The notes under the pieces are model-generated. The model saw only the letters and a list, made by a program, of their open reading frames with translations. It did not search any database and was not told the origin of the DNA. A stretch of DNA of 63,643 nt, the filler included, from Stramenopiles sp. TOSAG23-2 (Eukaryota): the NCBI GenBank assembly GCA_900128395.1. It is 10 parts of 10 records of this genome, joined end to end, with 100 filler letters (N's around TTAATTAATTAA, not from the genome) between each part and the next. Parts side by side here need not be neighbours in the genome. Positions count along the whole stretch, not along the records: positions 1 to 7,523 come from LT650306.1; 9 more parts are not named here. One strand, 5' to 3'. Within the stretch, counting starts at the first letter, position 1; each line of letters begins with the position of its first letter. Shown piece after piece: positions 1 to 29,850 of the stretch. A program made the translations under genes and the position numbers.

Positions 1-996
1 CCTGTTGTATAGTCCTTCGTTAATTGTATTTCGCGCCCAACAATGCTCACAACATCCTGAGTCTCTTTAAAACTCAGAGAGTACATCTCAGGAGATGATT
101 GTATATATATATATATTATATATCATATGATATATATCATATGAGTAAGAGAAAAACACATATATATCATATGACATATATAATAATATCATATGATATA
201 TCATATATGATAAGAGAAAATTATATACTTCGTATATATGATTAATATAAAAAATTCTCTTATTTATAAAATATATATTAATACGAGTAGTGATGGTTAA
301 AATCTAAGTTATAATAATTTTACTTCCCGTGCTAAGTAATATGCTNNNNNNNNNNNNNNNNNNNNNNNNNNNNNNNNNNNNNNNNNNNNNNNNNNNNNNN
401 NNNNNNNNNNNNNNNNNNNNNNNNNNNNNNNNNNNNNNNNNNNNNNNNNNNNNNNNNNNNNNNNNNNNNNNNNNNNNNNNNNNNNNNNNNNNNNNNNNNN
501 NNNNNCGCGGCTTTTTGCCACAACCGTGCACTTCAAGATCTTTATCCGGATAGTTACCGGTTGTTGTTCACAATAGGATCTTTCACTTCGACAACCTCAT
601 CATCACATGTCATTATTAAATCTCCACATTTTATATATATCATATATTTATATATGATAAATATCGTACTATCATATGAATATATATATATATATATATA
701 AATATATGTATCATACATATGCCATATTTTATAATCAATATCATAATCATTATCAATATATATATTATATAATATACATAAATCATAGCACTATACTAAA
801 TTTCAAACATTTTCGAAATTATTTTTTTCCAGCAAAAGCAGGATACATAAAGCCTGTAGACAGTTATTTCTGTCTTTTTATACTTTAATCTATCTCTCTT
901 TTATTGTTCTTATTACGCTACAATAATACATATATATTAGATATATTATATATATTTATAATATTGTAGATCTATAATAGGCACAAAATTCCAGTA

Positions 997-1998
997 TTAT
1001 TCTGGATCTCCAACACCTCCTTCCAACAAACAAAATTCAGCTTCACTTTCTGCAATCATAGGTGAGTCAATTACTTTACATATACGATTATCTCCACGGC
1101 CTTTTCTTAATTTCAAACGAGTAGTAGATGCATGTGCTACAATATTACCACCAATAGGTTTATTGTTGTCTTTAACAAACATAGCCGCCCCGCCAGGATC
1201 AGCAGTGACTTGATTGGTAATAACAACAGCAACACCATACGTGCTTGCTAACATTGTACATTGTCGTAAAAATTGTGCTAATTTTTGTTGCCTTTCAGCC
1301 AATTCACCACGGCCAGTAAAATCTGTACGAAATAGCGCAGTAGCACTATCGACAACCATTAAAGCATATCGACTTTCTGCCATCATTGCTGATGCGTGCT
1401 TTAATAACTCCATTTGATGCTCTGAATTGTACGCTCGTGCGAAAGCGACATTATCTAAAACATCATCAGGGTTCATACCAAAACGTTCAGCAATTTTTTT
1501 CAATTTCTCTGGACGAAAACAACCTTCTGTATCAATGTATAAAGCCTTTCCTTCCCCGCCACCTTGGTCGCAGGGTAATTGTGCCGTGACGCATAAAGTA
1601 TGACATAATTGTGATTTTCCCGTTCTAAATTCCCCATATAACTCAGTAATAGACCCAGTTTCCATTCCACCTTGTAACAATTCATCTAAGTTCTTACTAC
1701 CGGTAGTTAAAGTAATTAAAGATTCACGTTGTACGGCAAGTTCAGTGGCAGTTGTAAAACCCATTGGTACCAACTTTTTCGATTCTGTTAAAATTTTTGT
1801 AGCTTTCCCTTCACTTATGCCTTTGATTTCTGTCAATTGTTTCATCGTAGCATATGCAACAGCTTCAACTGTATGAAAGCCACCATCTTTTAATTTTGTA
1901 ACGTCTGAATTATTAATACCACAACTTTCGAGTCTATCTACCATCATAGGACCCATTTCTTGGTCTTCCTCTTCCTCTTCTTGCATGCGCGTAGCCAT
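997..1998 (-). CDS. RAD51: RAD51/DMC1-family recombinase (RAD51-like scaffold), ~333 aa, intronless
   Basis: Walker A GEFRTGKS, Walker B MVVDS, N-terminal [23 protein letters not shown] polymerisation motif, [30 protein letters not shown]. Start moved from the track's GTG (2073) to the ATG at 1998 (MATRMQEE). Confidence 0.9.
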
Positions 1999-2708: not shown

Positions 2709-5513
2709 TCATTTTTGCTTCACTTGCCTTTTACCTTCAACATTTTCATCCTTTATTTGGCTGTTGATTTCATGACTATTTTTAGATGTTAACATATTTG
2801 TTCTATCATTTAGACGGCGAGAATTTTTCTGTTTCTGAGTTGCGCTCAATTTTTTTGGATATGTATAAGTTCCCCAATAATCACCATTTCGCCCACCAGC
2901 AGGCATGACTTTCACCACACGTTTCTTTGGAGCGGAATTTGAGTTTAATAGGGATCCAACTGAATTCCACCATGCCTCCGGGTCTAATTCCTCTACATCT
3001 CTTCGATAATTCCTTGATGAGATAGATTTTCGCCCCGCTTGAGTGTACTTTTTCGAATTCTTCCCCGTATATGACTTTTGAGTATAGTTTCGTCTGACGG
3101 TTGCTTCTGGTGCCGGAGCAAGTACAAAGCCAGCACCTGTAAAATGGTGACCAGATGATGAAACTTGCAGGCCTTCTTTCATTTCTCTATGAAAATCTTT
3201 CTCACGTTCAATCAAACTAGTACTGGTAACGCTTTCATCTAATTCTTCCATTTGATCAAGAAGATCAAACAAACTGTCTTCATAGAAACATTCGGACAAA
3301 TCGTTTTGCTTGTTATAATTCTCATTAAGAATAGTATCAAAATCATCAAGAGATTGGTCACGTATATAGGTATTGTCCATTTTATCTTTCTTCTTTTTAT
3401 TTGTTCGTTTTACTTTTGATTTATTTTGCGTTTTTGCCTTTGTGTGTCTTTTTCTTTGAGTATTTTTCGTTCGACCCCACATTGGTTGCATTTTCAAGTT
3501 ATGCCGTTGTTGTTTCTGTTGACCCTCGTGAGTAATGTTATTATCATCCTCAAATACGTCTAAGCTATTTAGCCTATCTTTATTTGACTTATTGTTGTTG
3601 AAATAAAATTTGTTGTTCTGCGCACTATCTCGACTTTTTGTTGCATCTACTCCCTTTTGAAGGCTTATCTTATCTCGCCAAGAAGAACGACCTGGAGAAA
3701 GTGATTTTGATGGCAATGGCATAGGCATTTCTCTCTGATCCATCTCTGCATGAAACGATAAAACAGTATCAGCCTCTTCTAGATTAGCTTTTTGTGGGTA
3801 ACCTAGTGTGGTAAATGGTGCATTTGTATCATCCATCGACATACCATCCCACATTTCAGGTGTATCTCGGATTCGGACATGGCGTTCGAGCTCACTAATA
3901 GATTTCGATGGGATTTCCTGTGAACGAGTTGTTTCACTCTCAACAGCATTAGAGCTTATATTTTTTGTGTTATTCCTATCATTCTGCTTTCTTGAAGCAA
4001 GTTCGCTTTTTTCCTGTTCCTTACGTAAACGATTCAAAGCTAATCGCGCCTCGTTTAACTCTGTTTCCAATTTTGATACTACTGCTGTTGTTACTTTACC
4101 TAGTTCTTTCTTTGTACGCGGTGTTGAATTTATTATTTTTGACTCTATAATGTCGTCGTTTATATAATGTTGCTTTCTGTTTTGTGGTTCTACCTCCGAC
4201 CTTGATTGAAAACTTGGCTCTGCATTATTGTTGCGATTTTTTGCAATACGTGCTGCATCTCTTGAAACAATTTTCGCCCGTAATTTTAGCACTAAATCAC
4301 CCTGTTTTTTTTCCAATTCAGCGAAACTTTTGATTTCCACCCGTTGTCTCTCCGCTTTTCTTCTCAGAGATTCGACTTCTTCTCGTAATTCTAATTCGCG
4401 CTGATTTGCGCTTTCCCTTTCGAACTTTTCACGTCTATTCTCAGAAACAGCATTTTCTCTTTCCTGTGCCAATGCTCTTAACCTGGTTTGATACCCTTTG
4501 ATCAAGTCTAATGATTGAGCATATTTTGTTTGCACCGAATCAGTTTTTTTTAACAGCGCAGCAGCCTCTTCTTGCGCAGTACTTAAATTTTCTTGCAATA
4601 TATCTTTTTCTTGATCAAATTGTGCAACTGCAATTTCATTTTCTGCTCCTAGTTTCATCAATTGTTCAATTAACTTTGCAACTTTCATTTTGTCTTCCTC
4701 GCATAAATCAGCCAGCTTTGCATTTCCAGTAATATCACGCGTGTTTGGTATATTTGTATTTACATTTTTCAAAGAATCCTTACTTGGTGAAGTGGTAGGG
4801 GCGACTATGTTTGATGAAGGTACTGTCCCATCAACTTTGGTCGGGCTTGTTCCAAACTCGGCTTTTGATGCAGAAAAGCTTGGCGATTCGACTACTTTAT
4901 TGTGGTGGTCTCTTCGTTCAGGGGAAGTAGTTTGTTTAAGATTTCGACGATATTTATTAGATGAGCTAAATAATGCGGGATTTTCTTCTTCATCGTTTCC
5001 TTTTGCAGATGGAGACAATCCAGTCGAAATAGTCACACCAGTAGAGCCAGCTGGCCTCCAATGCTTTTTTTTTCGAGTAGACCTGCCCAAGCTTTTCCTT
5101 CCAAGGGTATTGCTTTTGGTATGACGTGATGGTGAAATATTTTTAATATGTGCTTGACCAATTATTTCGATGTTATTCTCATCAATTTTATGATCACTAT
5201 TTGCGTAACCAACAGGTACTTCAGGCTTTCTCAAATATGTAGTTGCAAATTTGTGTTGCGCCCCATCAATTCGTCTCTGGTCTATTTTTTCTTGGCGAGT
5301 TAAATCCCTAGCAGGACTACCCAAATGTTTATTATTGGCATAATTTTTGAAGTTAGAAGACAATGCAGATGCATCTCTGTGAGTTTGATTAATACGTTGG
5401 GTTAACGAATAGTTATTGCTACTGGATGAAATACTTGCTGCTGAAAAATTGTTCACTTTTGATTTTGGCAAAGGCAGTGATGCTGCTTTAGCTGGCGTTG
5501 AAACAGGTAGCAT
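2709..5513 (-). CDS. 934-aa low-complexity/coiled-coil protein with a hinderin (KIAA1328)-like motif
   Basis: Long intact ORF. LADLCEEDKMKVAKLIEQL followed by coiled coil resembles the recalled KIAA1328 core (LxDLCxEDKxxIAxLIxEL). Confidence 0.6.
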   Translation of the reverse strand: MLPVSTPAKAASLPLPKSKVNNFSAASISSSSNNYSLTQRINQTHRDASALSSNFKNYANNKHLGSPARDLTRQEKIDQRRIDGAQHKFATTYLRKPEVPVGYANSDHKIDENNIEIIGQAHIKNISPSRHTKSNTLGRKSLGRSTRKKKHWRPAGSTGVTISTGLSPSAKGNDEEENPALFSSSNKYRRNLKQTTSPERRDHHNKVVESPSFSASKAEFGTSPTKVDGTVPSSNIVAPTTSPSKDSLKNVNTNIPNTRDITGNAKLADLCEEDKMKVAKLIEQLMKLGAENEIAVAQFDQEKDILQENLSTAQEEAAALLKKTDSVQTKYAQSLDLIKGYQTRLRALAQERENAVSENRREKFERESANQRELELREEVESLRRKAERQRVEIKSFAELEKKQGDLVLKLRAKIVSRDAARIAKNRNNNAEPSFQSRSEVEPQNRKQHYINDDIIESKIINSTPRTKKELGKVTTAVVSKLETELNEARLALNRLRKEQEKSELASRKQNDRNNTKNISSNAVESETTRSQEIPSKSISELERHVRIRDTPEMWDGMSMDDTNAPFTTLGYPQKANLEEADTVLSFHAEMDQREMPMPLPSKSLSPGRSSWRDKISLQKGVDATKSRDSAQNNKFYFNNNKSNKDRLNSLDVFEDDNNITHEGQQKQQRHNLKMQPMWGRTKNTQRKRHTKAKTQNKSKVKRTNKKKKDKMDNTYIRDQSLDDFDTILNENYNKQNDLSECFYEDSLFDLLDQMEELDESVTSTSLIEREKDFHREMKEGLQVSSSGHHFTGAGFVLAPAPEATVRRNYTQKSYTGKNSKKYTQAGRKSISSRNYRRDVEELDPEAWWNSVGSLLNSNSAPKKRVVKVMPAGGRNGDYWGTYTYPKKLSATQKQKNSRRLNDRTNMLTSKNSHEINSQIKDENVEGKRQVKQK

Positions 5514-7946: not shown

Positions 7947-10900
7947 ATGTTACGTTCATTGCAATACTTTATACAAATTGCTATTTTTCTTGCGTTTTTA
8001 TCAACAATAAAAGCTCAGAATGCTAAGTTTGGTGAAACTGAAGTTAGAGTTACCATAAAAACAGGATCGTATCCAAAGGAACAGAGATGGACACTGTATA
8101 GATTAACAAACATTACATCGAGAAAGAAAGAAACTTCTGATTCATGCCCTGGATGGATTGATGGAGGAGATCCAACAGATTGGAGCGTAAGATATAACAG
8201 TCAATACAATTTTAAGTGTATGGCTAAAGATTTTAAGTTTCAAACGAAAGGTACCTATAACTCAAATAAGCAATTATCTACAACCAACCACCCATTCCAA
8301 GTGTGCACTATAAGCACTAAAGAAGCACCATGTGATGATGACGATTGCTGTAGTTATGCTCAAGATGGAGAATTGATGGGTGAAGATAATTTTATATCCC
8401 AATGGTATGGAGACCCAGGAAATCAATATGGTCCTGGTACGAACGGAGTGTACGATGTTAGTAGTAAAACATACTCTTACGGTTTCACTTTAAAACCAAG
8501 CTCCTTGTACAGAATAAAACTTTTCGATACATGGGGAGATGGTTGGAATGGGGGTACTTACAGAGTTGACAAAATGACAGTTAATGGATCCGTAACAGTA
8601 ATACCAGAGACGGAATTTAAAACAACAACTTCTGCTCTTAATGGCTATATTACTTACTCAGACTTTGAAACAAACCCGGAAGTTTATTGCCCTGCTGGTT
8701 ATTATTGCCCAACCCTATCTCAACAAATAAAGTGTGGAAATTATACAGTATATTGCCCTGTAGGATCATCTTATCCAATAAAAGTTAGTTCAAACGACAA
8801 ATGTGGTAGCCATCCAGCTATTGCAAATGATTACAGCACTTGCACGAAAGAAATAGATTGTCCAAAATTGGAAATAACAGAGGATCCGTCCGGCAAATTA
8901 TTGGTTGAGAAATTGGCATTAGTACAACCAGAATCTGGCGTTGCGAGAATTAAATTAAAAAATTCAAATTCAGCAGAAGTTGGCGGGCCGGCTATTATTT
9001 GGTCATGTCCACGATCCGCAGATGCAAATAACGCAAATAATTTAAAACAAATAACGATCGGCCAGCCGTTATGGAATGTTGCGCCATCACCAACGTTGTG
9101 TTTTAATGCAGGTTCCTATGGCGCATCTGCTCCAGATAAAGAATGGCTAGCTTGGCAGGTACCGCAAGGAACATTGGAGGCAGGAGAGAGCGTCATTATT
9201 GAAGTTTTGCTGTTAAGCGCCGAGGTTCAAGTCGCAAATGACACATATAGATCGTCTTTAAATATATCGTACATTACACCGGCAAGAGCAACGTTGCAAC
9301 CCTCACTACGGATGTCAAGTTTACCTTTCCATATGTCAGTCGGCGAAGCCCAAAATATTCTAGTATTTCCATTTCGCTTAGAAAGTACCTTGCGTGTAGG
9401 TGAAGTTGACATGCATGATATTTATGTGTTCAATATTGGTAATTCACCCGAAGGTCAGACTTTCGATGAATTTGGAGTTTACCTCTTGCCCGAGACTGAC
9501 GACGATGCCTGGAACGATGGTGTCGATACAAAGTACTCAAATAATTCAGTATGGGCAGAACTTGACTCCCCATCTGCCACTGGTTCGCAAATATGCACAA
9601 GCACAACTGTCGATTTTGACTCATTAGACACGAATTGTAAAGTAAAAAATGATCGTACCTTCAAAAAATATAGGGTGAAATTTAGTGCAGAAAATGTAGG
9701 CGCACAGATAGACCCATACGACTATAGTATTCGAGTAAAAACAACAGATAATGAGGTGGTAAATATTAATTTTAAATTAACTGTCACACCGGGCGAAACG
9801 GATGCTAGTACTTCAACTATTGCACCCGCAGACTTGAACAATACGCAACTAGTAGTTGGTTCGACTTTAGTAGTGCAAATATTTGGAAAAGACAAATTAG
9901 GTGGTCCTAGCGAGGATCAAGATTTCTTTTTCTTAAAATATAAAAAAACGACTAAGCTAGAGAATGGCGTAGAAAAATCATGTGACGGCGGCTGTGAAGA
10001 AGGGCAAATACAAGCAGTACAGAGTATTGTGTCGCCAACGAATGTCCACACTGTTTCCATTGTCTTAGCGGAATTTGGGAATACTGCAATTGAAATATTG
10101 TTGAAGGGTGTTGTTGTAGGTTCAAATACGTATACAGTGCGAGCGAAAGAACCAGATTGCCCAGCAAATTCAAATCCAAATATAAACAAAGATGCTTGTG
10201 AATGTAAAGCTGGATATGCAGCTTTGTCGACAGCCACCTCTGATACCTTGTTGTGTACACCATGCCCAGTCAATTCGTACAAAGCGAAAGCAGGAAATAA
10301 ACCGTGTAGTACATGCCCGGCGCATTCATTAACAAACAATTTAACCACATCTAAATCCTTATATTCGTGTGCATGTGTAGATACTCGTAGGTCTATAAAT
10401 TTGACCACTTTTGATGTTGAGGACACTTTATTATTTAAATGCCAATGTAATGCTGGGTATGAAGATTCAAAATCGGATTCTACTTGTTTGGAATGCAACG
10501 CTGGATCGTATCAAGCATTGGATAACGCTGATCCAAATATCCAAGTATGTGAAAAATGCGAGCATGGCAAAGTTACAAATTCCAAAATGGCCACAAATTG
10601 TACATCGTGTGTTGTTAATCAATGGTCATGTTCGGATACCTTATTCAATCAATATGGAGTTGATATTGATGCTGAAGTCAAATGTATTGGTTATACACAA
10701 TGTGTTGATTGTCCTATTGGAACAGCAGGAACAGATGGAAAAACATGTGAATCCTGTGACCCTGGGATGTACAATGGCAATAGAGGAGAATCATGTAAAG
10801 ATTGTGCAATGGGTAAATATCAAAGTGGATCTGGCAATGCCACTTGTATTTCGTGCGCAATTGGATCATTTAAATCAACCACAAAAAGCGCGACGCCATG

Positions 10901-13900
10901 CGAATTATGCCCATCTAACTCTTCTACAAATTTTATAGAATCAATTGATATTAAAAACTGCTCTTGTGGTGGAAATCGGGATCGCAAATATTTAGATGGT
11001 GGATCCGATTTTAGGTGTGTATGTTTCCAAGGATATGGTAAAAGCGCAGAAGATTCATCCAAATGTACGCAATGTACTCCTGGGAGAAAAAGCGTTGACA
11101 ATGGTGATGGAGAATTGATTTGCTCAAATTGCGCAACTGGCCAATACAGCATAAACGCTGGTGTAGAAAATTGCCAGCAGTGTGCAGCAAATAAATGGAC
11201 ATGCCCTACCTCCTATAATGGCACGCTTGCTGATTCTACTGAATGTCTAGGTAAAACTAGCTGTGTACGTTGTCCTATAGGAAGAAGTGGTAATGACGGG
11301 AAGGAATGTACACCGTGTTCCCCGGGATATTTCAATGATGTTTTAGGTGGTTCGTGTAAAAAATGTGCGACTGGTCAATATCAACCATCAAATGGCCAAG
11401 TTTCGTGCATTGAGTGCGAAGCTGGAAAATTCAATGATGAAGAAGCAATAGCAACTTCTTGTAAAGATTGTAATGCGGGAAGTTATGCAAATAGAACGGG
11501 GTCAGTGGCTTGTTTATCATGTTCAAGTGGACAATTTCAAGGAGCTAAAGGTAAAACAGCATGTATTGCATGTGATTCAGTCTCATACGCAGCCCCTGGA
11601 TCAATTGCGTGCACTCTTTGTCCAATACCTTTGGTAGTAGATCCAAGATTAGGTCCGGCTCGGGATGAATCTTTTTGCGTTTGCGAAGCTGATTTTTTCT
11701 TATATCCTTCTGTAGTTTTGACAATTGCATTAGATGAGATTTCAACGGCAGGAGTAAAATTTGACAGCGCTAACCAAAGGCTGGCTGTGAGAGGCTATAT
11801 CGGAAATGTATTGGGAAAAAACAGTCGCTCAGTAGGTTTACAAAGTGGGCTGCCATATAAGGAATCATTTGAAAAAGTAGAATTGTTAACGTATGGTAGC
11901 TATGCTGGTGGATTTCGTGCTATCTTTCAAATTTTGCCAATTAATGCTAATGCCTCTAGCGCACAGGACTTACTAGCATTATTTGATACTCCTGATAAGC
12001 TAAAAGCGCCATTTGTGGACAACAATAATAAACAAAAAAATCTATGGGCTGAAAAATTAAATCCTACCTTATCCGGCGCATCCATAAAGAAAAACTGCGA
12101 GGCTTGCCCACTTGGTGGAAAGTGCCATTTTGGTATTGTTGGGGAAACCGATATAGCAGCCTTACCAGGTTTTTGGAGACCGAAGAGAACTTATGCTCGT
12201 TTTTGGAGTTGCTTCACCCCATCCACCATGGGTGGAAAACTTTATCCTTGGTTAAGTTGTTATGGAGGTGTAGAATCAAGTTGTGGTCCTGTTTTCGATT
12301 TCGAAAGAAGGCTTGGGCCACGTGGACAAACAATTAAGAACCAATTGAATAAAGCAGACTTTACAGAAATGCCAAAATCAGAGTTTGATTACACATCTGC
12401 GTTGGCAACATTATACGAAGAGGGTCAAAACGAAACAATCGATTACGCTTTAGTATACTATTTAAACGAAATGATGCATTTTCGTATGAAGGAGCATAAT
12501 AGCTTTGGATCATATTTAGCAACTGGTGGTGTCAATTCAACTAGCCCAGTGAAGGGTTATAAACCAAATATGTTAATTGGTGAGTACGGTGGACCTTTAT
12601 GTAGCATTTGTCCCGCTGGAAGTGGCCGTGATGGAAATTTCAAGTCTGGTAGTACTTGTTCACCATGTCCTGACGAAGCGGCTAATACGATGAATCTATT
12701 TTGGGTATCTCTGCTTATTCTTTGCGTATTAGGAATGATGATTTGTTCCCAAGTAACGAAAGGTTCAAAAGAAAACGATTTTCTTCAGGAATTAAAAGCA
12801 ATTTATAAAGAACGTGGATTAAGTGATTCGTATTTAAAAATGGTTATAGATAAAAAGAAAAAGAAAAAAAAGAAGAAGAAGAAGAAGAAGAAAGGAGGGG
12901 AAGGCGAAAGAGAAGATAGCAGTGATGAAGAGGAAGAAGAAGAGGAAGCACCAATGAAAGTTACCGCAACTGTTGAAGCAGTGCATGTTGATCATGCAAT
13001 AGCAAAATATAAAGCTCAAAAGAAGTATGGTACTTATTCAGGCAAACAATTGTCACATAAAGAAGTGCTTACTGGAATGTTTAGAATTTTAGCCGCATAT
13101 TTACAAGTTACTGCGTTAGCACAAGCAGTGCCTATAGAATGGCCTGAAGCTGTACTTACGATATTTCGGGGAATGGAAAGAATATCTAGCCCATCTCTTT
13201 CAATGACATCAGTTGATTGTGCCATTGCTAAGGATGACCCTGCAAATGGTAATGGTGGTGCATTTTATAAAAAATTTTACACTATGATGGCTGTTCCATT
13301 AGCTGCAGTTGGTGTTCCGTTTCTTATCTATGGCACGTATTATATCGTTGGTATAATGGCTATAGGTTGTTGTGGTTGCAAAAAGTGGCCGGCAAGGAAA
13401 ACAAAAGAAGCCTTTAAACACGCCAAAATGTTAGACGACAAGTATACGGAAGCTCGAACATCAAGAGACGAGGCAGCTGATAAACATTACGAAGAGAGGA
13501 ATAAGAGAAAACGAAGGGTCAATCTTAGAATTCGCCGACGCAAGGGTAGATTGTATAATGTCAAAACATTAGCACAATACGACGCATTTAGACATTGGAA
13601 TAGAACGGCGAATAGATACTTAATAACAGTAATCTTGATACTATTTTTATTTTATACAACTATTTCAAAATCAATTGTTAGTGCCTTTGCCTGTCAAAAA
13701 TTTGGAGAGGAAGCATATTTGATTGCAGATTTTTCGGTTGATTGCAATGGTGAGGAATATTTAAACTTCGTTCCGAATGCAATGTTTTTTTTCGTTATAT
13801 ATTGTTTAGGTATTCCGTATGCAGCATATCGCATTTTACGCAGATACATAGATGGAATTCATTATGATCCAATGCGAGCAATATCACCTGAAAATCCTAA

Positions 13901-14930
13901 AACTCTTGGTCATGAGCTTGATTATGTAGAAAATGATGCAACAAGAATCTTGTTGATGCGAGAGAAGCACACTTCCCATCAATCATTTGGTTTTCTATGG
14001 CAAGGATTGAACGAAAAAGGGCATGCACCATACTGGGAAGCATCAGCTGTTACATTACGGAAATTATTTATGATCTTTATTGTAATGATGTTTCAAGATT
14101 CAAATAAAAACATCCAAATGGTCATTGCATTGATGGGATTGTTTGTATTTACAGCTTCTCATATTAATGTAAAGCCATACGATTCGTTTGTCCATGATAA
14201 ATTAGAAATTTTATCTTTATTCGTATCTCAAACAACTATGTTTGTTGGTCTAATAGCAAATTTCCTGAAAGATGATCAAAAATCAGACAGGAGAAATTTA
14301 ACAGAGGTGGAAGCGGAAAATTGGAATCTTGCATTAGGTGGTGTTATCGTATTTTGTAATTTAATATTCATGTTGTACTTTTCAATAAATTTACTGTACC
14401 ATGCATTTTTCATGTTGGATGAAAAAGTTCAAGTAATTTTACATAAACTTTGTGGTTGTTGTTATTCAAAAAAGAAGAAGGGAAAGAAAGATAGTCGTGT
14501 CAAAAGAACGTCATTTTCATTAGATACAATGGATTATGCGTATCATAAGGATACAAGGGGCTCAAGTGGAGTAGAAATGGCGCAAAGAGGTAGTTCAATC
14601 CAACAAAAAATTAATCAAGTGATACAATTTACAGTTCCAAAAGGTTCAGGTCCAGGAAAAAAGCTAATTTTGAAAGGCTTGAGTGGAGAACGTTTCGCTG
14701 TTATCGTCCCAGATTATGCATTCCCAGGGACAAGTTTGACATTTACTTTAAATCCTAAAGATGGAGGCAAACATGTTCGTAGAAGTGTAGTAGGAGCACA
14801 AGGATTAAATGACACGATTGACTCTCTTGGTTCGCTTGGTAGCGATAGTGAAAACCCATATGACGATAGTGACGATCACGATGATGATGATGATAGTGAT
14901 AAAGAAGAGCAACTTCACCTGGTAATTTAG
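7947..14930 (+). CDS. 2327-aa cell-surface protein: signal peptide, Ig/filamin-like region, many Cys-rich ephrin-receptor-like (GCC2/GCC3) repeats, multi-pass TM C-terminus
   Basis: Hydrophobic N-terminus, DTWGDGWNGG motif, PGETDASTSTI...GKDKLG filamin-like segment, repeated CxxCxxGxYQ..GxxxC units, several hydrophobic helices after aa ~1590, and YLIADFSVDC and VKPYD motifs typical of protist Cys-rich TM proteins. Confidence 0.85.
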   Translation: MLRSLQYFIQIAIFLAFLSTIKAQNAKFGETEVRVTIKTGSYPKEQRWTLYRLTNITSRKKETSDSCPGWIDGGDPTDWSVRYNSQYNFKCMAKDFKFQTKGTYNSNKQLSTTNHPFQVCTISTKEAPCDDDDCCSYAQDGELMGEDNFISQWYGDPGNQYGPGTNGVYDVSSKTYSYGFTLKPSSLYRIKLFDTWGDGWNGGTYRVDKMTVNGSVTVIPETEFKTTTSALNGYITYSDFETNPEVYCPAGYYCPTLSQQIKCGNYTVYCPVGSSYPIKVSSNDKCGSHPAIANDYSTCTKEIDCPKLEITEDPSGKLLVEKLALVQPESGVARIKLKNSNSAEVGGPAIIWSCPRSADANNANNLKQITIGQPLWNVAPSPTLCFNAGSYGASAPDKEWLAWQVPQGTLEAGESVIIEVLLLSAEVQVANDTYRSSLNISYITPARATLQPSLRMSSLPFHMSVGEAQNILVFPFRLESTLRVGEVDMHDIYVFNIGNSPEGQTFDEFGVYLLPETDDDAWNDGVDTKYSNNSVWAELDSPSATGSQICTSTTVDFDSLDTNCKVKNDRTFKKYRVKFSAENVGAQIDPYDYSIRVKTTDNEVVNINFKLTVTPGETDASTSTIAPADLNNTQLVVGSTLVVQIFGKDKLGGPSEDQDFFFLKYKKTTKLENGVEKSCDGGCEEGQIQAVQSIVSPTNVHTVSIVLAEFGNTAIEILLKGVVVGSNTYTVRAKEPDCPANSNPNINKDACECKAGYAALSTATSDTLLCTPCPVNSYKAKAGNKPCSTCPAHSLTNNLTTSKSLYSCACVDTRRSINLTTFDVEDTLLFKCQCNAGYEDSKSDSTCLECNAGSYQALDNADPNIQVCEKCEHGKVTNSKMATNCTSCVVNQWSCSDTLFNQYGVDIDAEVKCIGYTQCVDCPIGTAGTDGKTCESCDPGMYNGNRGESCKDCAMGKYQSGSGNATCISCAIGSFKSTTKSATPCELCPSNSSTNFIESIDIKNCSCGGNRDRKYLDGGSDFRCVCFQGYGKSAEDSSKCTQCTPGRKSVDNGDGELICSNCATGQYSINAGVENCQQCAANKWTCPTSYNGTLADSTECLGKTSCVRCPIGRSGNDGKECTPCSPGYFNDVLGGSCKKCATGQYQPSNGQVSCIECEAGKFNDEEAIATSCKDCNAGSYANRTGSVACLSCSSGQFQGAKGKTACIACDSVSYAAPGSIACTLCPIPLVVDPRLGPARDESFCVCEADFFLYPSVVLTIALDEISTAGVKFDSANQRLAVRGYIGNVLGKNSRSVGLQSGLPYKESFEKVELLTYGSYAGGFRAIFQILPINANASSAQDLLALFDTPDKLKAPFVDNNNKQKNLWAEKLNPTLSGASIKKNCEACPLGGKCHFGIVGETDIAALPGFWRPKRTYARFWSCFTPSTMGGKLYPWLSCYGGVESSCGPVFDFERRLGPRGQTIKNQLNKADFTEMPKSEFDYTSALATLYEEGQNETIDYALVYYLNEMMHFRMKEHNSFGSYLATGGVNSTSPVKGYKPNMLIGEYGGPLCSICPAGSGRDGNFKSGSTCSPCPDEAANTMNLFWVSLLILCVLGMMICSQVTKGSKENDFLQELKAIYKERGLSDSYLKMVIDKKKKKKKKKKKKKKGGEGEREDSSDEEEEEEEAPMKVTATVEAVHVDHAIAKYKAQKKYGTYSGKQLSHKEVLTGMFRILAAYLQVTALAQAVPIEWPEAVLTIFRGMERISSPSLSMTSVDCAIAKDDPANGNGGAFYKKFYTMMAVPLAAVGVPFLIYGTYYIVGIMAIGCCGCKKWPARKTKEAFKHAKMLDDKYTEARTSRDEAADKHYEERNKRKRRVNLRIRRRKGRLYNVKTLAQYDAFRHWNRTANRYLITVILILFLFYTTISKSIVSAFACQKFGEEAYLIADFSVDCNGEEYLNFVPNAMFFFVIYCLGIPYAAYRILRRYIDGIHYDPMRAISPENPKTLGHELDYVENDATRILLMREKHTSHQSFGFLWQGLNEKGHAPYWEASAVTLRKLFMIFIVMMFQDSNKNIQMVIALMGLFVFTASHINVKPYDSFVHDKLEILSLFVSQTTMFVGLIANFLKDDQKSDRRNLTEVEAENWNLALGGVIVFCNLIFMLYFSINLLYHAFFMLDEKVQVILHKLCGCCYSKKKKGKKDSRVKRTSFSLDTMDYAYHKDTRGSSGVEMAQRGSSIQQKINQVIQFTVPKGSGPGKKLILKGLSGERFAVIVPDYAFPGTSLTFTLNPKDGGKHVRRSVVGAQGLNDTIDSLGSLGSDSENPYDDSDDHDDDDDSDKEEQLHLVI

Positions 14931-27823: not shown

Positions 27824-29850
27824 TTAATACATGCTTTCAATCAATTCATGATATCGTTTCGAGATATCATTTCGTTTCATACTTAATTTTGGTGTTAATA
27901 AACCATTTTCAATGGAAAATGGTTCATCGATTATTGTAAATTGATGTGGCACTTCATAACTTTTACCTAATTTATCATCATTTTCTAATTTATCTAATTC
28001 ATCTTGAAACAATTGCTTTAATGCATCATTATTTACATATGCTGATGGATTTGTCACTTCTTCGCCTTTTTCTATACCTAATTCTACCGCACATGCATCA
28101 AAATCTGGGACTATTAAAAGTACATTATATTCTTTATTTAAACCATAAACAAAACATTGTTGTACATATGGTGACCATAATTTAAATTTATCTTCCACAT
28201 TACCAGGTACAACAAATTTTCCATTTGTTAATTTATATTGTTCCGATGCCCTTCCAGTAATTTTAAGTACATTATCTTTTGATAAAATTCCTAAATCTCC
28301 AGTTCGAAAAACACGATCGTTGCTACCATCTGGTCGTATATAGATAACTTCTTCTGTAGCATCTTCCCTTTTATAATAACCTTTCATAATATTACTTCCT
28401 ACAACACATATTTCCCCTTCTTCCCCATTTTCCAATTCTTCCATTTCATTTGGTTTTACTATAATGATTTCAACTCCAGGAACTGCTTGCAAACCACCTT
28501 GTGTTTTTTCTGTTGGCCCATACCTTTCTAATGCAACGACTGGTGATGTTTCCGTCAATCCATAACCTTCTAACATTGGAATACCAATATCACCAAACCA
28601 TTGTTGAATAATTGGTGACAATGCACCACCACCAGTACAACAAAATTTAATTCGACCACCTAACAGGTTTGTTACACTAGAAAATATAAAACGTTGCACA
28701 AAATTCCATTTTAAAAATAATAATGGTGCAAATCCTTCTTTACCTTCATCAAACCATTCTCTACGTTCTCTTGCTACTTTCATACCAAAATTAAATAATT
28801 TTGCTTTTGTTTCATTGGTTGCTAATTTTGCCCGTACACCATCATAAATTCTATTATACATCATTGGGACAGTTAATAATACAGTTGGTTTTACTTCTTG
28901 GATATCTTCCATAATACTATCACGATCTGTTATTCCCATTGATCCACCTGCATTAATAATATCTGTAATGTATATGTGTATTTTTGTATTTGAGAAAGAG
29001 TATTTTATATATGTTGTTAGATACGTTTTATTTATTAATGCGTTTAGAGTATAGTGGTATATATATATATAATCGGATATTACATACTGTGCAATTCCAT
29101 CGTTTGACCATAAACATGTGCCCATGGAAGAATTGATAAGGTAACAGTATCAGAATCAATTCTATCACCAAATAATTTTGCAACAGATAATATATTAGAA
29201 CATATATTTTCATGTGTTAACATGACACCTTTTGGCTTGCCTGTCGTTCCACTTGTATAAATTAAAGACGCAACATTTTGAGGCATAATATTATTTTCAA
29301 TGTCATTTGTAATAGTAATATCTTCACACCATGAACTAAATGATTCATTAGAATTACTATCTGTATTTTCAAAATTCACAACGGGTATATTTGATAATGA
29401 AGGTATGCCACTTAAACCAGAACGTACTTCATCAGTTTGTGCGAACACAATTTTTGCATCACTATCATTGATTATATAATCCCACTCTTCTTTTTTTTGA
29501 TTTGGATACAATGGGACTACGGGCATACCTAAGGCATATCCAGCATATGCAGTTATCGCCCATTCTTTTGAGTTATTACTGATGATAGCAAGTTTATCAC
29601 CATTTTTAAAACCTTCTTGATGTAGTTTATGCTTTAAATTTTGTGTTACTTTGCCAAATTCATCGTACGTTATCCATTCAAATGTATTTGTATCCTTATT
29701 TTTCGTACCTATTAATTTTTGATTCGGAAATTCTTGAACTGCTTTTTCATATAAATCATTTAATGTATGAAAGGGCGAAGCAGAAGTTGTTGATACTATA
29801 ATTGACGATATGGCACGATGACGACGCAACGAACCAGTTAATGTTAACAT
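27824..29850 (-). CDS. Long-chain acyl-CoA synthetase, 2 exons (29088-29850 + 27824-28962), 633 aa, likely mitochondrial presequence
   Basis: YTSGTTGKPKG, EGYGLTET, FRTGDLG and PKLSMKR motifs. The 125-bp intron 28963-29087 (GTATGT...CTAAC...TACAG) joins the two ORFs in frame (MELH-N-IINAGG). Confidence 0.92.

What the first reader, a model, noticed from the sequence alone, without database searches (positions are those of the whole stretch)
1185..1620. RAD51-framed recombinase carrying DMC1-type L1 and L2 DNA-binding loops
Seen: the N-terminus and scaffold read as RAD51 ([56 protein letters not shown]), but L1 is [20 protein letters not shown] and L2 begins [18 protein letters not shown] and SEHQMELL are also DMC1-like. 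Established: canonical RAD51 has GELSARQMHL and VAQVDG, while meiotic DMC1 has [10 protein letters not shown] and TADPG. These lineage-specific loop residues underlie Dmc1's mismatch tolerance, and DMC1-less Caenorhabditis RAD-51 has Dmc1-like L1 residues. Inference: this may be a dual-purpose, mismatch-tolerant RAD51 (convergence, or gene conversion with a lost DMC1), hinting at cryptic meiosis in this protist.
Basis: partly seen in the sequence, partly recalled or inferred. Interest (0 to 1): 0.75.

Follow-up and report, generated by a model that had tools for sequence, protein, structure and literature searches.

The report
RAD51 gene with DMC1-type loops
This is the general DNA-repair recombinase gene RAD51 of an unnamed marine protist whose two DNA-touching loops carry exactly the residues that normally mark the meiosis-only sister enzyme DMC1; it is a natural test case for how those loops set recombination fidelity, but its relatives show a gradual trend, not a chimera.

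Summary
Window 997-1998 (minus strand) is an intronless 333-codon gene. As a whole it is RAD51: the RAD51 model scores 528 bits (above cut-off) against 445 for DMC1 (below cut-off). It lies inside the RAD51 clade (96/91) and has a RAD51-type stacked-aromatic interface. Loop L1 nevertheless carries the DMC1 triad E235/Q238/K239, and loop L2 carries D267-P268-G269.

It is not an assembly chimera. Twenty further protein clusters, 73-100% identical to it, share the same mosaic, and 19 non-source sequencing runs hold the stretch.

DMC1-type states are interleaved with RAD51 states residue by residue, which argues against gene conversion. All 9 named stramenopile RAD51s already have the L2 proline and a similar overall shift towards DMC1. 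This includes Phytophthora, which has its own DMC1. Most "DMC1-type" states are also the archaeal RadA states. Only the complete set (E-Q-K plus D-P-G) is specific to this clade.

No genome was available, so loss of DMC1, a second RAD51 and "cryptic meiosis" could not be tested. Mismatch tolerance is inferred from published mutant work, not shown. I class it as a new member of the known kind "Dmc1-like RAD51", of moderate interest.

The parts
997..1998 (-). RAD51 coding sequence: 333 codons plus stop, no intron
   Evidence: Open frame and translation. TIGR02239 RAD51 scores 528.4 bits against a cut-off of 478.05. The N-terminus matches homologues starting at the same ATG. The upstream GTG start used in cluster P0002 adds 25 residues with no counterpart in relatives.
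1777..1920 (-). N-terminal helix-hairpin-helix domain (residues 27-74), RAD51-like in sequence
   Evidence: Pfam HHH_5, 33.8 bits. The log-odds windows 36-55 and 61-85 are strongly RAD51-like, -30 to -41 bits.
1852..1854 (-). Y49, first residue of the RAD51-type stacked-aromatic protomer interface
   Evidence: Aligns to the Y of human RAD51 'AVAYA'. Position 49 is Y in canonical RAD51 and M in DMC1. The aromatic pair is described in PMC12803942.
1003..1731 (-). Rad51 ATPase core (residues 90-332)
   Evidence: Pfam PF08423, 413.1 bits, covering profile positions 1-244 of 244.
1612..1635 (-). Walker A motif GEFRTGKS (residues 122-129)
   Evidence: These columns are invariant in alignment A1.
1573..1602 (-). 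[10 protein letters not shown] (residues 133-142), with DMC1-leaning C136 and A139
   Evidence: Coordinates. Position 136 is C in 18/22 DMC1s and A in 9/12 canonical RAD51s. Position 139 is A/T in 20/22 DMC1s and C in 12/12 RAD51s. C136 is shared by all stramenopile-type RAD51s sampled.
1429..1431 (-). Y190, second residue of the stacked-aromatic pair
   Evidence: Aligns to the F of human RAD51 'ARAFN'. Coordinates.
1402..1428 (-). NSEHQMELL (residues 191-199): E193, M196 and E197 lean to DMC1, N191 is RAD51-type
   Evidence: E193 and M196 are shared by most stramenopile RAD51s.
1264..1332 (-). DNA-binding loop L1 region (residues 223-245), with the DMC1 triad E235, Q238, K239
   Evidence: The 23-residue string is identical in 18 of 21 clade members. 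The stretch [17 protein letters not shown] is identical to plant DMC1 rows in A2.
1177..1218 (-). DNA-binding loop L2 region (residues 261-274), with D267-P268-G269 as in DMC1
   Evidence: The best PDB match is 7C9A, the engineered human RAD51-V273P/D274G (its identity is confirmed in PMC7809202).

Best explanation
This is the RAD51 orthologue of an unnamed, low-GC, intron-poor marine protist whose nearest named RAD51 relatives are stramenopiles. It keeps the RAD51 scaffold: the N-terminal domain, the ATPase core and the stacked-aromatic protomer interface Y49/Y190. It belongs to a set of RAD51s that never show the 'canonical' high-fidelity loop configuration (L1 A/S-M-H, L2 V-D) seen in animals, fungi, Amoebozoa and red algae.

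In this particular clade both loops have reached the exact DMC1 configuration (L1 E-Q-K, L2 D-P-G), and that configuration is held under strong constraint.

Shown: orthology by profile scores and tree; the residue states; their conservation; their site-by-site (not tract-wise) distribution; and the graded series in relatives.

Inferred from published mutant and structural work: Q238 with the conserved arginine steadies the DNA backbone, and P268/G269 remove the V-L steric gate and the D-R salt bridge. The filament should therefore tolerate mismatched base triplets as DMC1 does. On this reading the protein is a single RAD51 suited to both repair and recombination between diverged homologues.

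Origin: retention of, or parallel point substitution towards, the ancestral RadA/DMC1-like loop type. It is not a gene conversion and not an assembly artefact.
For: Family assignment:
- TIGR02239 RAD51 scores 528.4 bits (cut-off 478.05); TIGR02238 DMC1 scores 444.8 (cut-off 447.7).
- Human RAD51 chains score 480-487 bits against 351 for human DMC1.
- Identity is 63-67% to canonical RAD51s and 48-57% to named DMC1s.
- Careful ML tree of 66 rows and 317 columns: RAD51 including the query clade 96/91*, DMC1 clade 100/98* excluding it, query clade 100/100*.
- DMC1 monophyly excluding the query also holds for the loop region alone (94) and for the remainder (99*).
- A search scored on residues 186-275 alone listed the query's own clade, then RAD51s including named stramenopile ones. 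None of the 120 listed bears a DMC1 name.
- Y49/Y190 match the RAD51-specific aromatic pair.

Conservation:
- 21 of 215 RAD51-type clusters have E-Q-K plus D-P-G. All are 73-100% identical to the query, and 18 of the 21 have an identical L1 23-mer.

Graded series:
- The sister group (91/79) has E-Q-K with S/N-P-D.
- Heterosigma/Triparma-type proteins have E-M-Q/M with D-P-G.
- Oomycetes have A-Q-E with N-P-D.

Parsimony on the tree: P268 needs 1 change over all 66 rows, P-G needs 3 among the 44 RAD51 rows, and E-Q-K needs 2.

RadA states: F223 8/8, P268 8/8, K/R239 7/8.

Mechanism: Steinfeld 2019 and Luo 2021.

Independent occurrence: 20 runs from 16 studies hold the stretch, 6 of them RNA.
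Against: - AU tests do not reject the query clade as sister to DMC1. Whole protein p=0.189 (delta lnL 11.6); loops p=0.464; remainder p=0.424. The same test also fails to reject oomycete RAD51 plus DMC1 (p=0.246), so it has no power at the base of RAD51.
- The trait columns were part of the tree on which changes were counted.
- The 215 RAD51s are a biased sample: half came from a search for loops like the query's. Most are unnamed.
- Whether the L2 proline is retained or regained depends on a gene tree that conflicts with the accepted species tree.
- The organism is not identified, and its DMC1, HOP2 and MND1 status is unknown.
- Oomycetes keep DMC1 and still have P-D, so DMC1-like RAD51 loops need not signal a single-recombinase lifestyle.
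- No biochemical data exist for this protein.
Confidence: 0.6

Rival explanations
1. Ordinary lineage state with no special role. Stramenopile-type RAD51s simply retain the archaeal-type loops, the organism still has a normal DMC1, and the extra G269/D267/K239 are minor drift with little functional consequence.
For: - 9 of 9 named stramenopile RAD51s have P268.
- RAD51-minus-DMC1 profile score: query +83.6, Phytophthora +82.5, Triparma +64.9, against fish +173.5.
- At 18 diagnostic sites the query has 8 DMC1 states and the oomycetes 6-7.
- Phytophthora is listed with Dmc1 in Malik 2008 Table 2.
- The 2026 preprint infers P-D as the ancestral Rad51 state and records Rad51 tips with P-G.
Against: - The full set is confined to one clade and is nearly invariant there (18 of 21 identical L1 strings at 73-100% overall identity). 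That indicates constraint rather than drift.
- Exactly these three residues change fidelity when swapped in human and yeast proteins.
- P-G arose at least twice among the RAD51 rows.
Confidence: 0.2
2. Specialised meiotic RAD51 duplicate. The genome holds a second, canonical RAD51 for mitotic repair, and this copy has taken over the DMC1 role, comparable to the RAD51-A1/A2 pair of some diatoms.
For: - Diatoms lack DMC1 and HOP2. Some have two RAD51-A copies, and RAD51-A1 is up-regulated in meiosis (Patil 2015, passages read).
- Canonical-loop RAD51s of unknown origin (P0022, P0023) are 67% identical to the query.
- The genome could not be searched.
Against: - No second RecA-family gene lies among the 18 large ORFs of the window that were scanned.
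- P0022 and P0023 sit inside the canonical clade, not beside the query clade.
- The gene's contigs occur in 6 polyA/cDNA metatranscriptome runs from 5 studies of bulk seawater. That would be unusual for a strictly meiotic gene, although contigs cannot show expression level.
Confidence: 0.1
3. Gene conversion. L1 and L2 were copied from a DMC1 paralogue, now lost or still present, into a RAD51 backbone.
For: - A 17-residue stretch of L1 is identical to plant DMC1.
- The AU test on the loop region cannot reject grouping with DMC1 (p=0.464).
Against: - RAD51-type states sit inside and between the DMC1-type patches: T225, F243, R245, G255, I260, A271, N191. Several separate tracts of a few codons each would be needed.
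- In the loop-only tree DMC1 (94) excludes the query clade.
- The loop-only database search returned RAD51s only.
- Relatives show L1 and L2 states acquired separately.
Confidence: 0.05
4. It is really a DMC1 orthologue, or a third ancient paralogue, whose scaffold has converged on RAD51.
For: - AU tests do not reject a position as sister to DMC1.
- The DMC1 profile score is only 2.9 bits below its cut-off.
Against: - The same AU result is obtained for oomycete RAD51.
- The RAD51 clade has 96/91* support.
- The log-odds sum is -140 bits towards RAD51.
- The Y49 aromatic interface is RAD51-type.
- The crown DMC1 clade includes SAR members (Amorphochlora, Blepharisma) yet excludes the query.
Confidence: 0.05

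Closest known systems
Caenorhabditis elegans RAD-51 (Steinfeld et al. 2019, Genes Dev; PMC6719624)
   Same: A RAD51 orthologue whose L1 lineage-specific residues are of the Dmc1 type. The paper shows they confer stabilisation of mismatched triplets and are needed for normal meiosis.
   Different: In the worm only L1 is described as Dmc1-like, and the genome is known to lack DMC1, HOP2 and MND1. Here both L1 (E-Q-K) and L2 (D-P-G) match DMC1 exactly. The DMC1 status is unknown, and nothing has been tested at the bench.
Engineered human RAD51-V273P/D274G (PDB 7C9A; Luo et al. 2021, PMC7809202)
   Same: A RAD51 scaffold with DMC1's L2 Pro-Gly. It is the best-scoring solved structure for this protein (487 bits). 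The paper reports attenuated fidelity for RAD51 carrying DMC1 loop residues.
   Different: 7C9A is an artificial double mutant that still has M243 in L1. The window's protein is natural and also carries the L1 Gln.
Trichoderma reesei Rad51 (Li et al. 2021, PMC7923544)
   Same: A Rad51 with better mismatch tolerance, attributed to L1/L2 variation. The paper frames this as convergent evolution of Rad51-only species towards Dmc1-like activity.
   Different: Per that paper, the three Dmc1 L1 residues are not preserved in the Rad51s of Rad51-only filamentous fungi, TrRad51 included; it attributes their tolerance to other L1/L2 substitutions. Here the residues are the DMC1 ones themselves.
Canonical DMC1 (TIGR02238; human 7C98, yeast 7EJ6)
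   Same: The L1 triad E-Q-K, L2 D-P-G, F223/F227, E193 and C136.
   Different: The protein scores below the DMC1 cut-off and 84 bits lower than for RAD51. It lies outside the DMC1 clade. It has RAD51's N-terminal domain and aromatic Y49, and RAD51 states at 225, 243, 245 and 255.
RAD51 of named stramenopiles (Phytophthora, Aphanomyces, Achlya, Albugo, Plasmopara, Triparma, Heterosigma, Tribonema, Blastocystis)
   Same: They share the L2 proline and the states C136 and F223, and most share E193 and M196. Their RAD51-minus-DMC1 profile scores are likewise reduced.
   Different: None of the 9 has K239. Only 2 have G269, only 3 have E235, and 6 have Q238. None has the complete DMC1 set.
Diatom RAD51-A (Patil et al. 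2015, PMC4647503)
   Same: A stramenopile RAD51 proposed to stand in for a missing DMC1, and up-regulated in meiosis.
   Different: That paper does not use the word 'loop' (0 occurrences). I could not tell which, if any, of my unnamed sequences are diatom genes.

Membership tests
RAD51 (eukaryotic general recombinase) | Scores above the curated cut-off of the RAD51 equivalog profile, and higher than for DMC1 or RadA | tested here: met
   TIGR02239 scores 528.4 bits (cut-off 478.05), DMC1 444.8 and RadA 370.2.
RAD51 (eukaryotic general recombinase) | Branches inside the RAD51 clade, apart from DMC1, with RadA as outgroup | tested here: met
   The RAD51 clade including the query has 96/91* support, and the DMC1 clade excluding it has 100/98*. 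Caveat: the AU test cannot reject a position as sister to DMC1 (p=0.189), and it cannot for oomycete RAD51 either (p=0.246).
RAD51 (eukaryotic general recombinase) | Stacked aromatic pair at the protomer interface (ScRad51 Y112/Y253, human Y/F) | tested here: met
   Y49 and Y190 align to the human Y and F. Position 49 is Y in RAD51 and M in DMC1. The feature is described in PMC12803942. The human residue numbers are recalled, not taken from a call.
RAD51 (eukaryotic general recombinase) | N-terminal HhH domain plus a Rad51-type ATPase core with Walker A | tested here: met
   Pfam HHH_5 and PF08423 (413 bits, full profile). GEFRTGKS is invariant in A1.
RAD51 (eukaryotic general recombinase) | Canonical lineage-specific loop residues (L1 A/S-M-H; L2 Q-V-D) | tested here: not met
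   The query has E235, Q238, K239 and D267, P268, G269. This is a feature of 'canonical' RAD51 rather than of the orthologue group; C. elegans RAD-51 also departs from it.
RAD51 (eukaryotic general recombinase) | Expression outside meiosis | tested here: inconclusive
   Contigs of 6 RNA runs (polyA or cDNA metatranscriptomes, 5 studies) hold 69-85% of the sampled words. Contigs show presence only, not cell stage or level.
DMC1 (meiotic recombinase) | Scores above the curated cut-off of the DMC1 equivalog profile, as the best hit | tested here: not met
   444.8 bits is below the 447.7 cut-off and 83.6 bits below the RAD51 score.
DMC1 (meiotic recombinase) | Branches inside the DMC1 clade | tested here: not met
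   The clade of 16 named DMC1s excludes the query in the whole protein (100/98*), the loop region (94) and the remainder (99*).
DMC1 (meiotic recombinase) | L1 lineage-specific triad (ScDmc1 E234, Q237, K238) and L2 Pro-Gly (human P274/G275) | tested here: met
   E235, Q238, K239 and P268, G269.
DMC1 (meiotic recombinase) | No stacked aromatic pair at the interface (M/G/S at the first position) | tested here: not met
   Y49.
DMC1 (meiotic recombinase) | Meiosis-specific expression and dependence on Hop2-Mnd1 | not testable with these tools
   No genome, culture or staged transcriptome is available.
Dmc1-like RAD51 of single-recombinase organisms (C. elegans type) | RAD51 orthologue bearing Dmc1-type L1 residues | tested here: met
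Dmc1-like RAD51 of single-recombinase organisms (C. elegans type) | The genome lacks DMC1 (and usually HOP2/MND1) | not testable with these tools
   No whole genome is held for this window. No RecA-family gene lies among the other 18 large ORFs of the 63.6-kb window that were scanned.
Dmc1-like RAD51 of single-recombinase organisms (C. elegans type) | Stabilises mismatched base triplets in vitro | not testable with these tools
   This needs purified protein.

The most novel reading that the evidence does not exclude
A widespread clade of marine protists may use one RAD51 for both mitotic repair and meiotic inter-homologue recombination. That RAD51 would be a natural equivalent of the engineered RAD51 M243Q/V273P/D274G, having kept or regained the ancestral, mismatch-tolerant RadA/DMC1-type DNA-binding site. 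More broadly, the 'canonical' high-fidelity RAD51 loop set would be a derived feature of the animal-fungal-amoebozoan-red-algal RAD51s sampled here, rather than a universal RAD51 property. Stramenopile RAD51s as a group would then be low-fidelity recombinases.
Probability: 0.3. Interest if true: 0.65.

Novelty: new member of a known kind. Interest (0 to 1): 0.45.

Why it matters
Why most eukaryotes keep two recombinases is an open question. The current answer rests on a handful of L1 and L2 residues, tested mainly by swapping them in yeast, human and worm proteins.

This gene is a natural RAD51 that carries all of those DMC1 residues at once on an otherwise RAD51 scaffold. It is conserved across a clade of abundant marine protists, and its relatives display the intermediate combinations (E-Q-K with P-D, E-M-Q with D-P-G, A-Q-E with N-P-D). 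That is a ready-made allelic series for testing which residues set mismatch tolerance and crossover bias.

It also shows that the 'canonical' RAD51 loop signature is not general. There is a practical consequence: 6 of 14 stramenopile-type RAD51s tested pass the curated cut-offs of both the RAD51 and the DMC1 NCBIfam models. Meiotic-toolkit surveys that score DMC1 presence by profile hit alone could therefore be misled.

Tried and rejected
- Own-genome search for DMC1, HOP2, MND1, SPO11 or a second RAD51: no genome is held.
The chimera question was answered from clade-wide conservation instead.
- Earlier scan notes: nothing on this genome. The sequence and word look-ups gave only unrelated archaeal RadA, Ostreococcus DMC1 and Cryptosporidium RAD51D notes.
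- Taxon from the ESM Atlas: only generic RAD51 clusters, and bacterial or fungal CoA-transferase clusters for a neighbouring gene.
- AU tests of 'query clade plus DMC1' were uninformative for every partition. A control with oomycete RAD51 was equally unrejected, so I give them no weight either way.
- P0013 appeared in both the RAD51 and the DMC1 searches. It is a canonical RAD51 with an internally duplicated segment, so I dropped it as an artefact.
- The 50%-identity representatives of DMC1 (P0139-P0141 and others) had poor C-termini or gaps. I used them only to seed the DMC1 search.
- Rows left out of the 66-row trees: the partial Heterosigma protein, fragments under about 300 aa, and most near-duplicates.
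The one JBC 2025 file held as text has none of five stramenopile genus names. bioRxiv supplements are closed, so the preprint's list of Rad51 tips with P-G was not seen.
Full report
**What is there.** Window 997-1998 on the minus strand is one uninterrupted open frame of 333 codons. It lies in a region of about 30% G+C with long intron-free ORFs and AT-rich repeats between genes. Pfam finds an N-terminal helix-hairpin-helix domain and a full-length Rad51 ATPase core. The finding's span, 1185-1620, is the middle of this gene. None of the 18 other large ORFs of the window that I scanned belongs to the RecA family or to a recognisable meiotic function.

**Observation check.** The RAD51-type stretches align without a gap to human RAD51. 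I assembled 12 canonical RAD51s (animals, a chytrid, a choanoflagellate, an amoebozoan, red algae) and 22 named DMC1s from plants, fungi, animals, Amoebozoa, Heterolobosea, a rhizarian, a ciliate and a metamonad. The query has the DMC1 state at E235, Q238 and K239 in L1 and at D267, P268 and G269 in L2. It also has F223, F227, E193, C136 and A139. A per-position log-odds profile is -140 bits (RAD51-like) over the whole protein, but +27 bits over L1 and +25 bits over L2. The mosaic is therefore real and well beyond chance.

**Which family.**
- Profile scores: the RAD51 equivalog scores 528.4 bits (cut-off 478.05); DMC1 scores 444.8, just under its cut-off of 447.7.
- Solved structures: human RAD51 scores 480-487 bits against 351 for human DMC1. 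The single best chain is 7C9A, the engineered RAD51-V273P/D274G.
- Careful ML tree (66 rows, 317 columns, LG+C20): RAD51 including the query clade 96/91, the 16 DMC1s 100/98, the query clade 100/100.
- Partitions: DMC1 also excludes the query when only residues 186-275 are used (94) and when only the remainder is used (99).
- Loop-only search: a database search scored on residues 186-275 returned the query's own clade and then RAD51s, including those of Heterosigma, Aphanomyces, Triparma, Achlya, Albugo, Phytophthora and Tribonema. None of the 120 listed bears a DMC1 name.
- Interface: the query has Y49 and Y190 at the positions of the stacked aromatic pair. Petassi et al. 2025 describe that pair as nearly universal in Rad51 and absent from Dmc1.

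Against this, AU tests do not reject the query clade as sister to DMC1 (p=0.19 whole, 0.46 loops, 0.42 remainder). The same test does not reject oomycete RAD51 as sister to DMC1 either (p=0.25). It simply has no power at the short RAD51 stem.

**Not an assembly chimera.** Of 215 RAD51-type clusters gathered (P0013 dropped as an artefact), 21 carry E-Q-K plus D-P-G. All are 73-100% identical to the query, and 18 of the 21 have an identical 23-residue L1 string. The 1201-base stretch is held by 20 runs from 16 studies, one of them a possible source. Six are polyA or cDNA metatranscriptomes. A read-level check could not be made.

**How unusual among relatives.**
- All 9 named stramenopile RAD51s have P268. 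Six have Q238, three have E235, two have G269 and none has K239.
- At 18 strictly diagnostic positions the query has 7 RAD51 states, 8 DMC1 states and 3 others. Oomycetes have 7-8, 6-7 and 4. Canonical RAD51s have 0-1 DMC1 states.
- The RAD51-minus-DMC1 profile score is +83.6 for the query, +82.5 for Phytophthora, +64.9 for Triparma and +106 for Blastocystis. It is +139 to +174 for red-algal, chytrid and fish RAD51.
- Phytophthora is listed as having Dmc1 and Thalassiosira as lacking it in Malik 2008 Table 2 (my reading of the table rows).

A DMC1-leaning RAD51 is therefore not tied to loss of DMC1. What is specific to the query clade is the complete DMC1 set in both loops.

**Origin.** DMC1-type and RAD51-type states are interleaved every few residues: T225; then F227 to Q242; then F243, R245, G255 and I260; then D267-G269; then A271. 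A single conversion tract cannot explain this. The sister group of the query clade (91/79) has E-Q-K with S/N-P-D. A Triparma/Heterosigma-like group has E-M-Q/M with D-P-G. The two loops were therefore assembled separately, and P-G arose more than once among RAD51s (3 changes; E-Q-K 2 changes). Several 'DMC1' states are also the RadA states: F223 8/8, P268 8/8, K/R239 7/8. On the gene tree P268 needs only one change in all 66 rows, namely the switch to valine on the stem of the canonical clade. This agrees with a 2026 preprint (10.1101/2025.02.19.639135; passages read). That preprint infers P-D as ancestral for Rad51 and mentions Rad51 tips with P-D, P-E and P-G. Two caveats apply: the trait columns were part of the tree, and the gene tree conflicts with the species tree. 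Retention and reversal therefore cannot be told apart here.

**Likely mechanism (inferred).** Steinfeld 2019 showed that the three L1 residues decide whether mismatched triplets are stabilised. The same paper showed that C. elegans RAD-51, in a DMC1-less animal, carries Dmc1-like L1 residues that it needs in meiosis. Luo 2021 assigned fidelity to DMC1 Q244/P274/G275 against RAD51 M243/V273/D274. The Gln, with the conserved Arg, steadies the backbone. Pro-Gly opens the 'triplet gate' by removing a V-L steric contact and a D-R salt bridge. The query has all three DMC1 residues on a RAD51 scaffold, so DMC1-like mismatch tolerance is the natural prediction. The preprint reports more mitotic crossovers and lower survival for yeast rad51-PG. 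That hints at a cost which this lineage must tolerate or compensate for.

**Not established.** The organism's identity is unknown. Also unknown are whether it has DMC1, HOP2, MND1, SPO11 or a second RAD51, when the gene is expressed, and any biochemical property. 'Cryptic meiosis' has no support from this gene alone.

**Prior knowledge.**
- The concept of Rad51-only species evolving Dmc1-like activity is in print.
- Patil 2015 proposed that diatom RAD51s replace DMC1, without using the word 'loop'.
- Steinfeld 2019, Li 2021, the 2026 preprint and a 2026 review do not contain 'stramenopile', and the first three do not contain 'diatom' either.
- My searches for stramenopile+DMC1+RAD51+meiosis found 15 papers. 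My search for 'Dmc1-like'+Rad51 found 18 papers, of which 13 were listed. Neither listing, read as titles and abstract starts only, showed a paper on this case.
- Supplements that may list such sequences were not visible to me (bioRxiv supplements are closed).

**Verdict.** This is a RAD51 orthologue with a complete DMC1-type DNA-binding site, conserved in a clade of marine protists. It is the extreme of a trend shared by stramenopile-type RAD51s, and it is neither a chimera nor a conversion product. I class it as a new member of the known kind 'Dmc1-like RAD51', of moderate interest. Its main value is as a natural allelic series for fidelity studies and as a caution for DMC1 presence/absence surveys.

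Noticed in passing
window 346-505, 100-300, 620-800 and 930-980: There is a run of 160 N (a scaffold gap) about 490 bases downstream of the gene's stop. It is flanked by AT-rich, partly palindromic repeats of the type TATATCATATGATATA. Part of this flank tripped the read laying filter.
   Followed up: no
window 27824-29850, minus strand: An AMP-binding (acyl-CoA synthetase-like) gene is split into two ORFs that overlap by 46 bases. ORF 29080-29850 matches profile positions 4-224 and ORF 27824-29125 matches positions 230-384. This could be a frameshift, a sequencing error or a short intron.
   Followed up: no
proteins P0295, P0298, P0300, P0301 and other oomycete-type RAD51s: 28 of 215 RAD51-type clusters have Met-Tyr at the two 'stacked aromatic' interface positions. 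Met-Tyr is the commonest DMC1 pair. 26 of the 28 are the oomycete-type A-Q-E/N-P-D proteins. A further 22 clusters, Triparma-like, have His-His. Both depart from the Y/F pairs reported for 93.9% of Rad51s.
   Followed up: partly
proteins P0003, P0006, P0009, P0070, P0019 and P0036 (Blastocystis): 6 of the 14 stramenopile-type RAD51s scanned pass the curated cut-offs of both the RAD51 and the DMC1 NCBIfam equivalog models. This is a hazard for automatic DMC1 calls in meiotic-toolkit surveys.
   Followed up: partly
protein P0013: This 391-aa metagenome protein scored highly in both the RAD51 and the DMC1 searches. It is a canonical RAD51 with an internally duplicated segment of about 55 residues around the Walker A region, probably an assembly or gene-model artefact.
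   Followed up: yes
window 2709-5513 (minus strand) and 7947-14930 (plus strand): The gene immediately upstream of RAD51 is a 934-aa, low-complexity, charged protein with no Pfam match. Further on lies a 2327-aa ORF whose only match is one ephrin-receptor-like cysteine-rich repeat.
   Followed up: no
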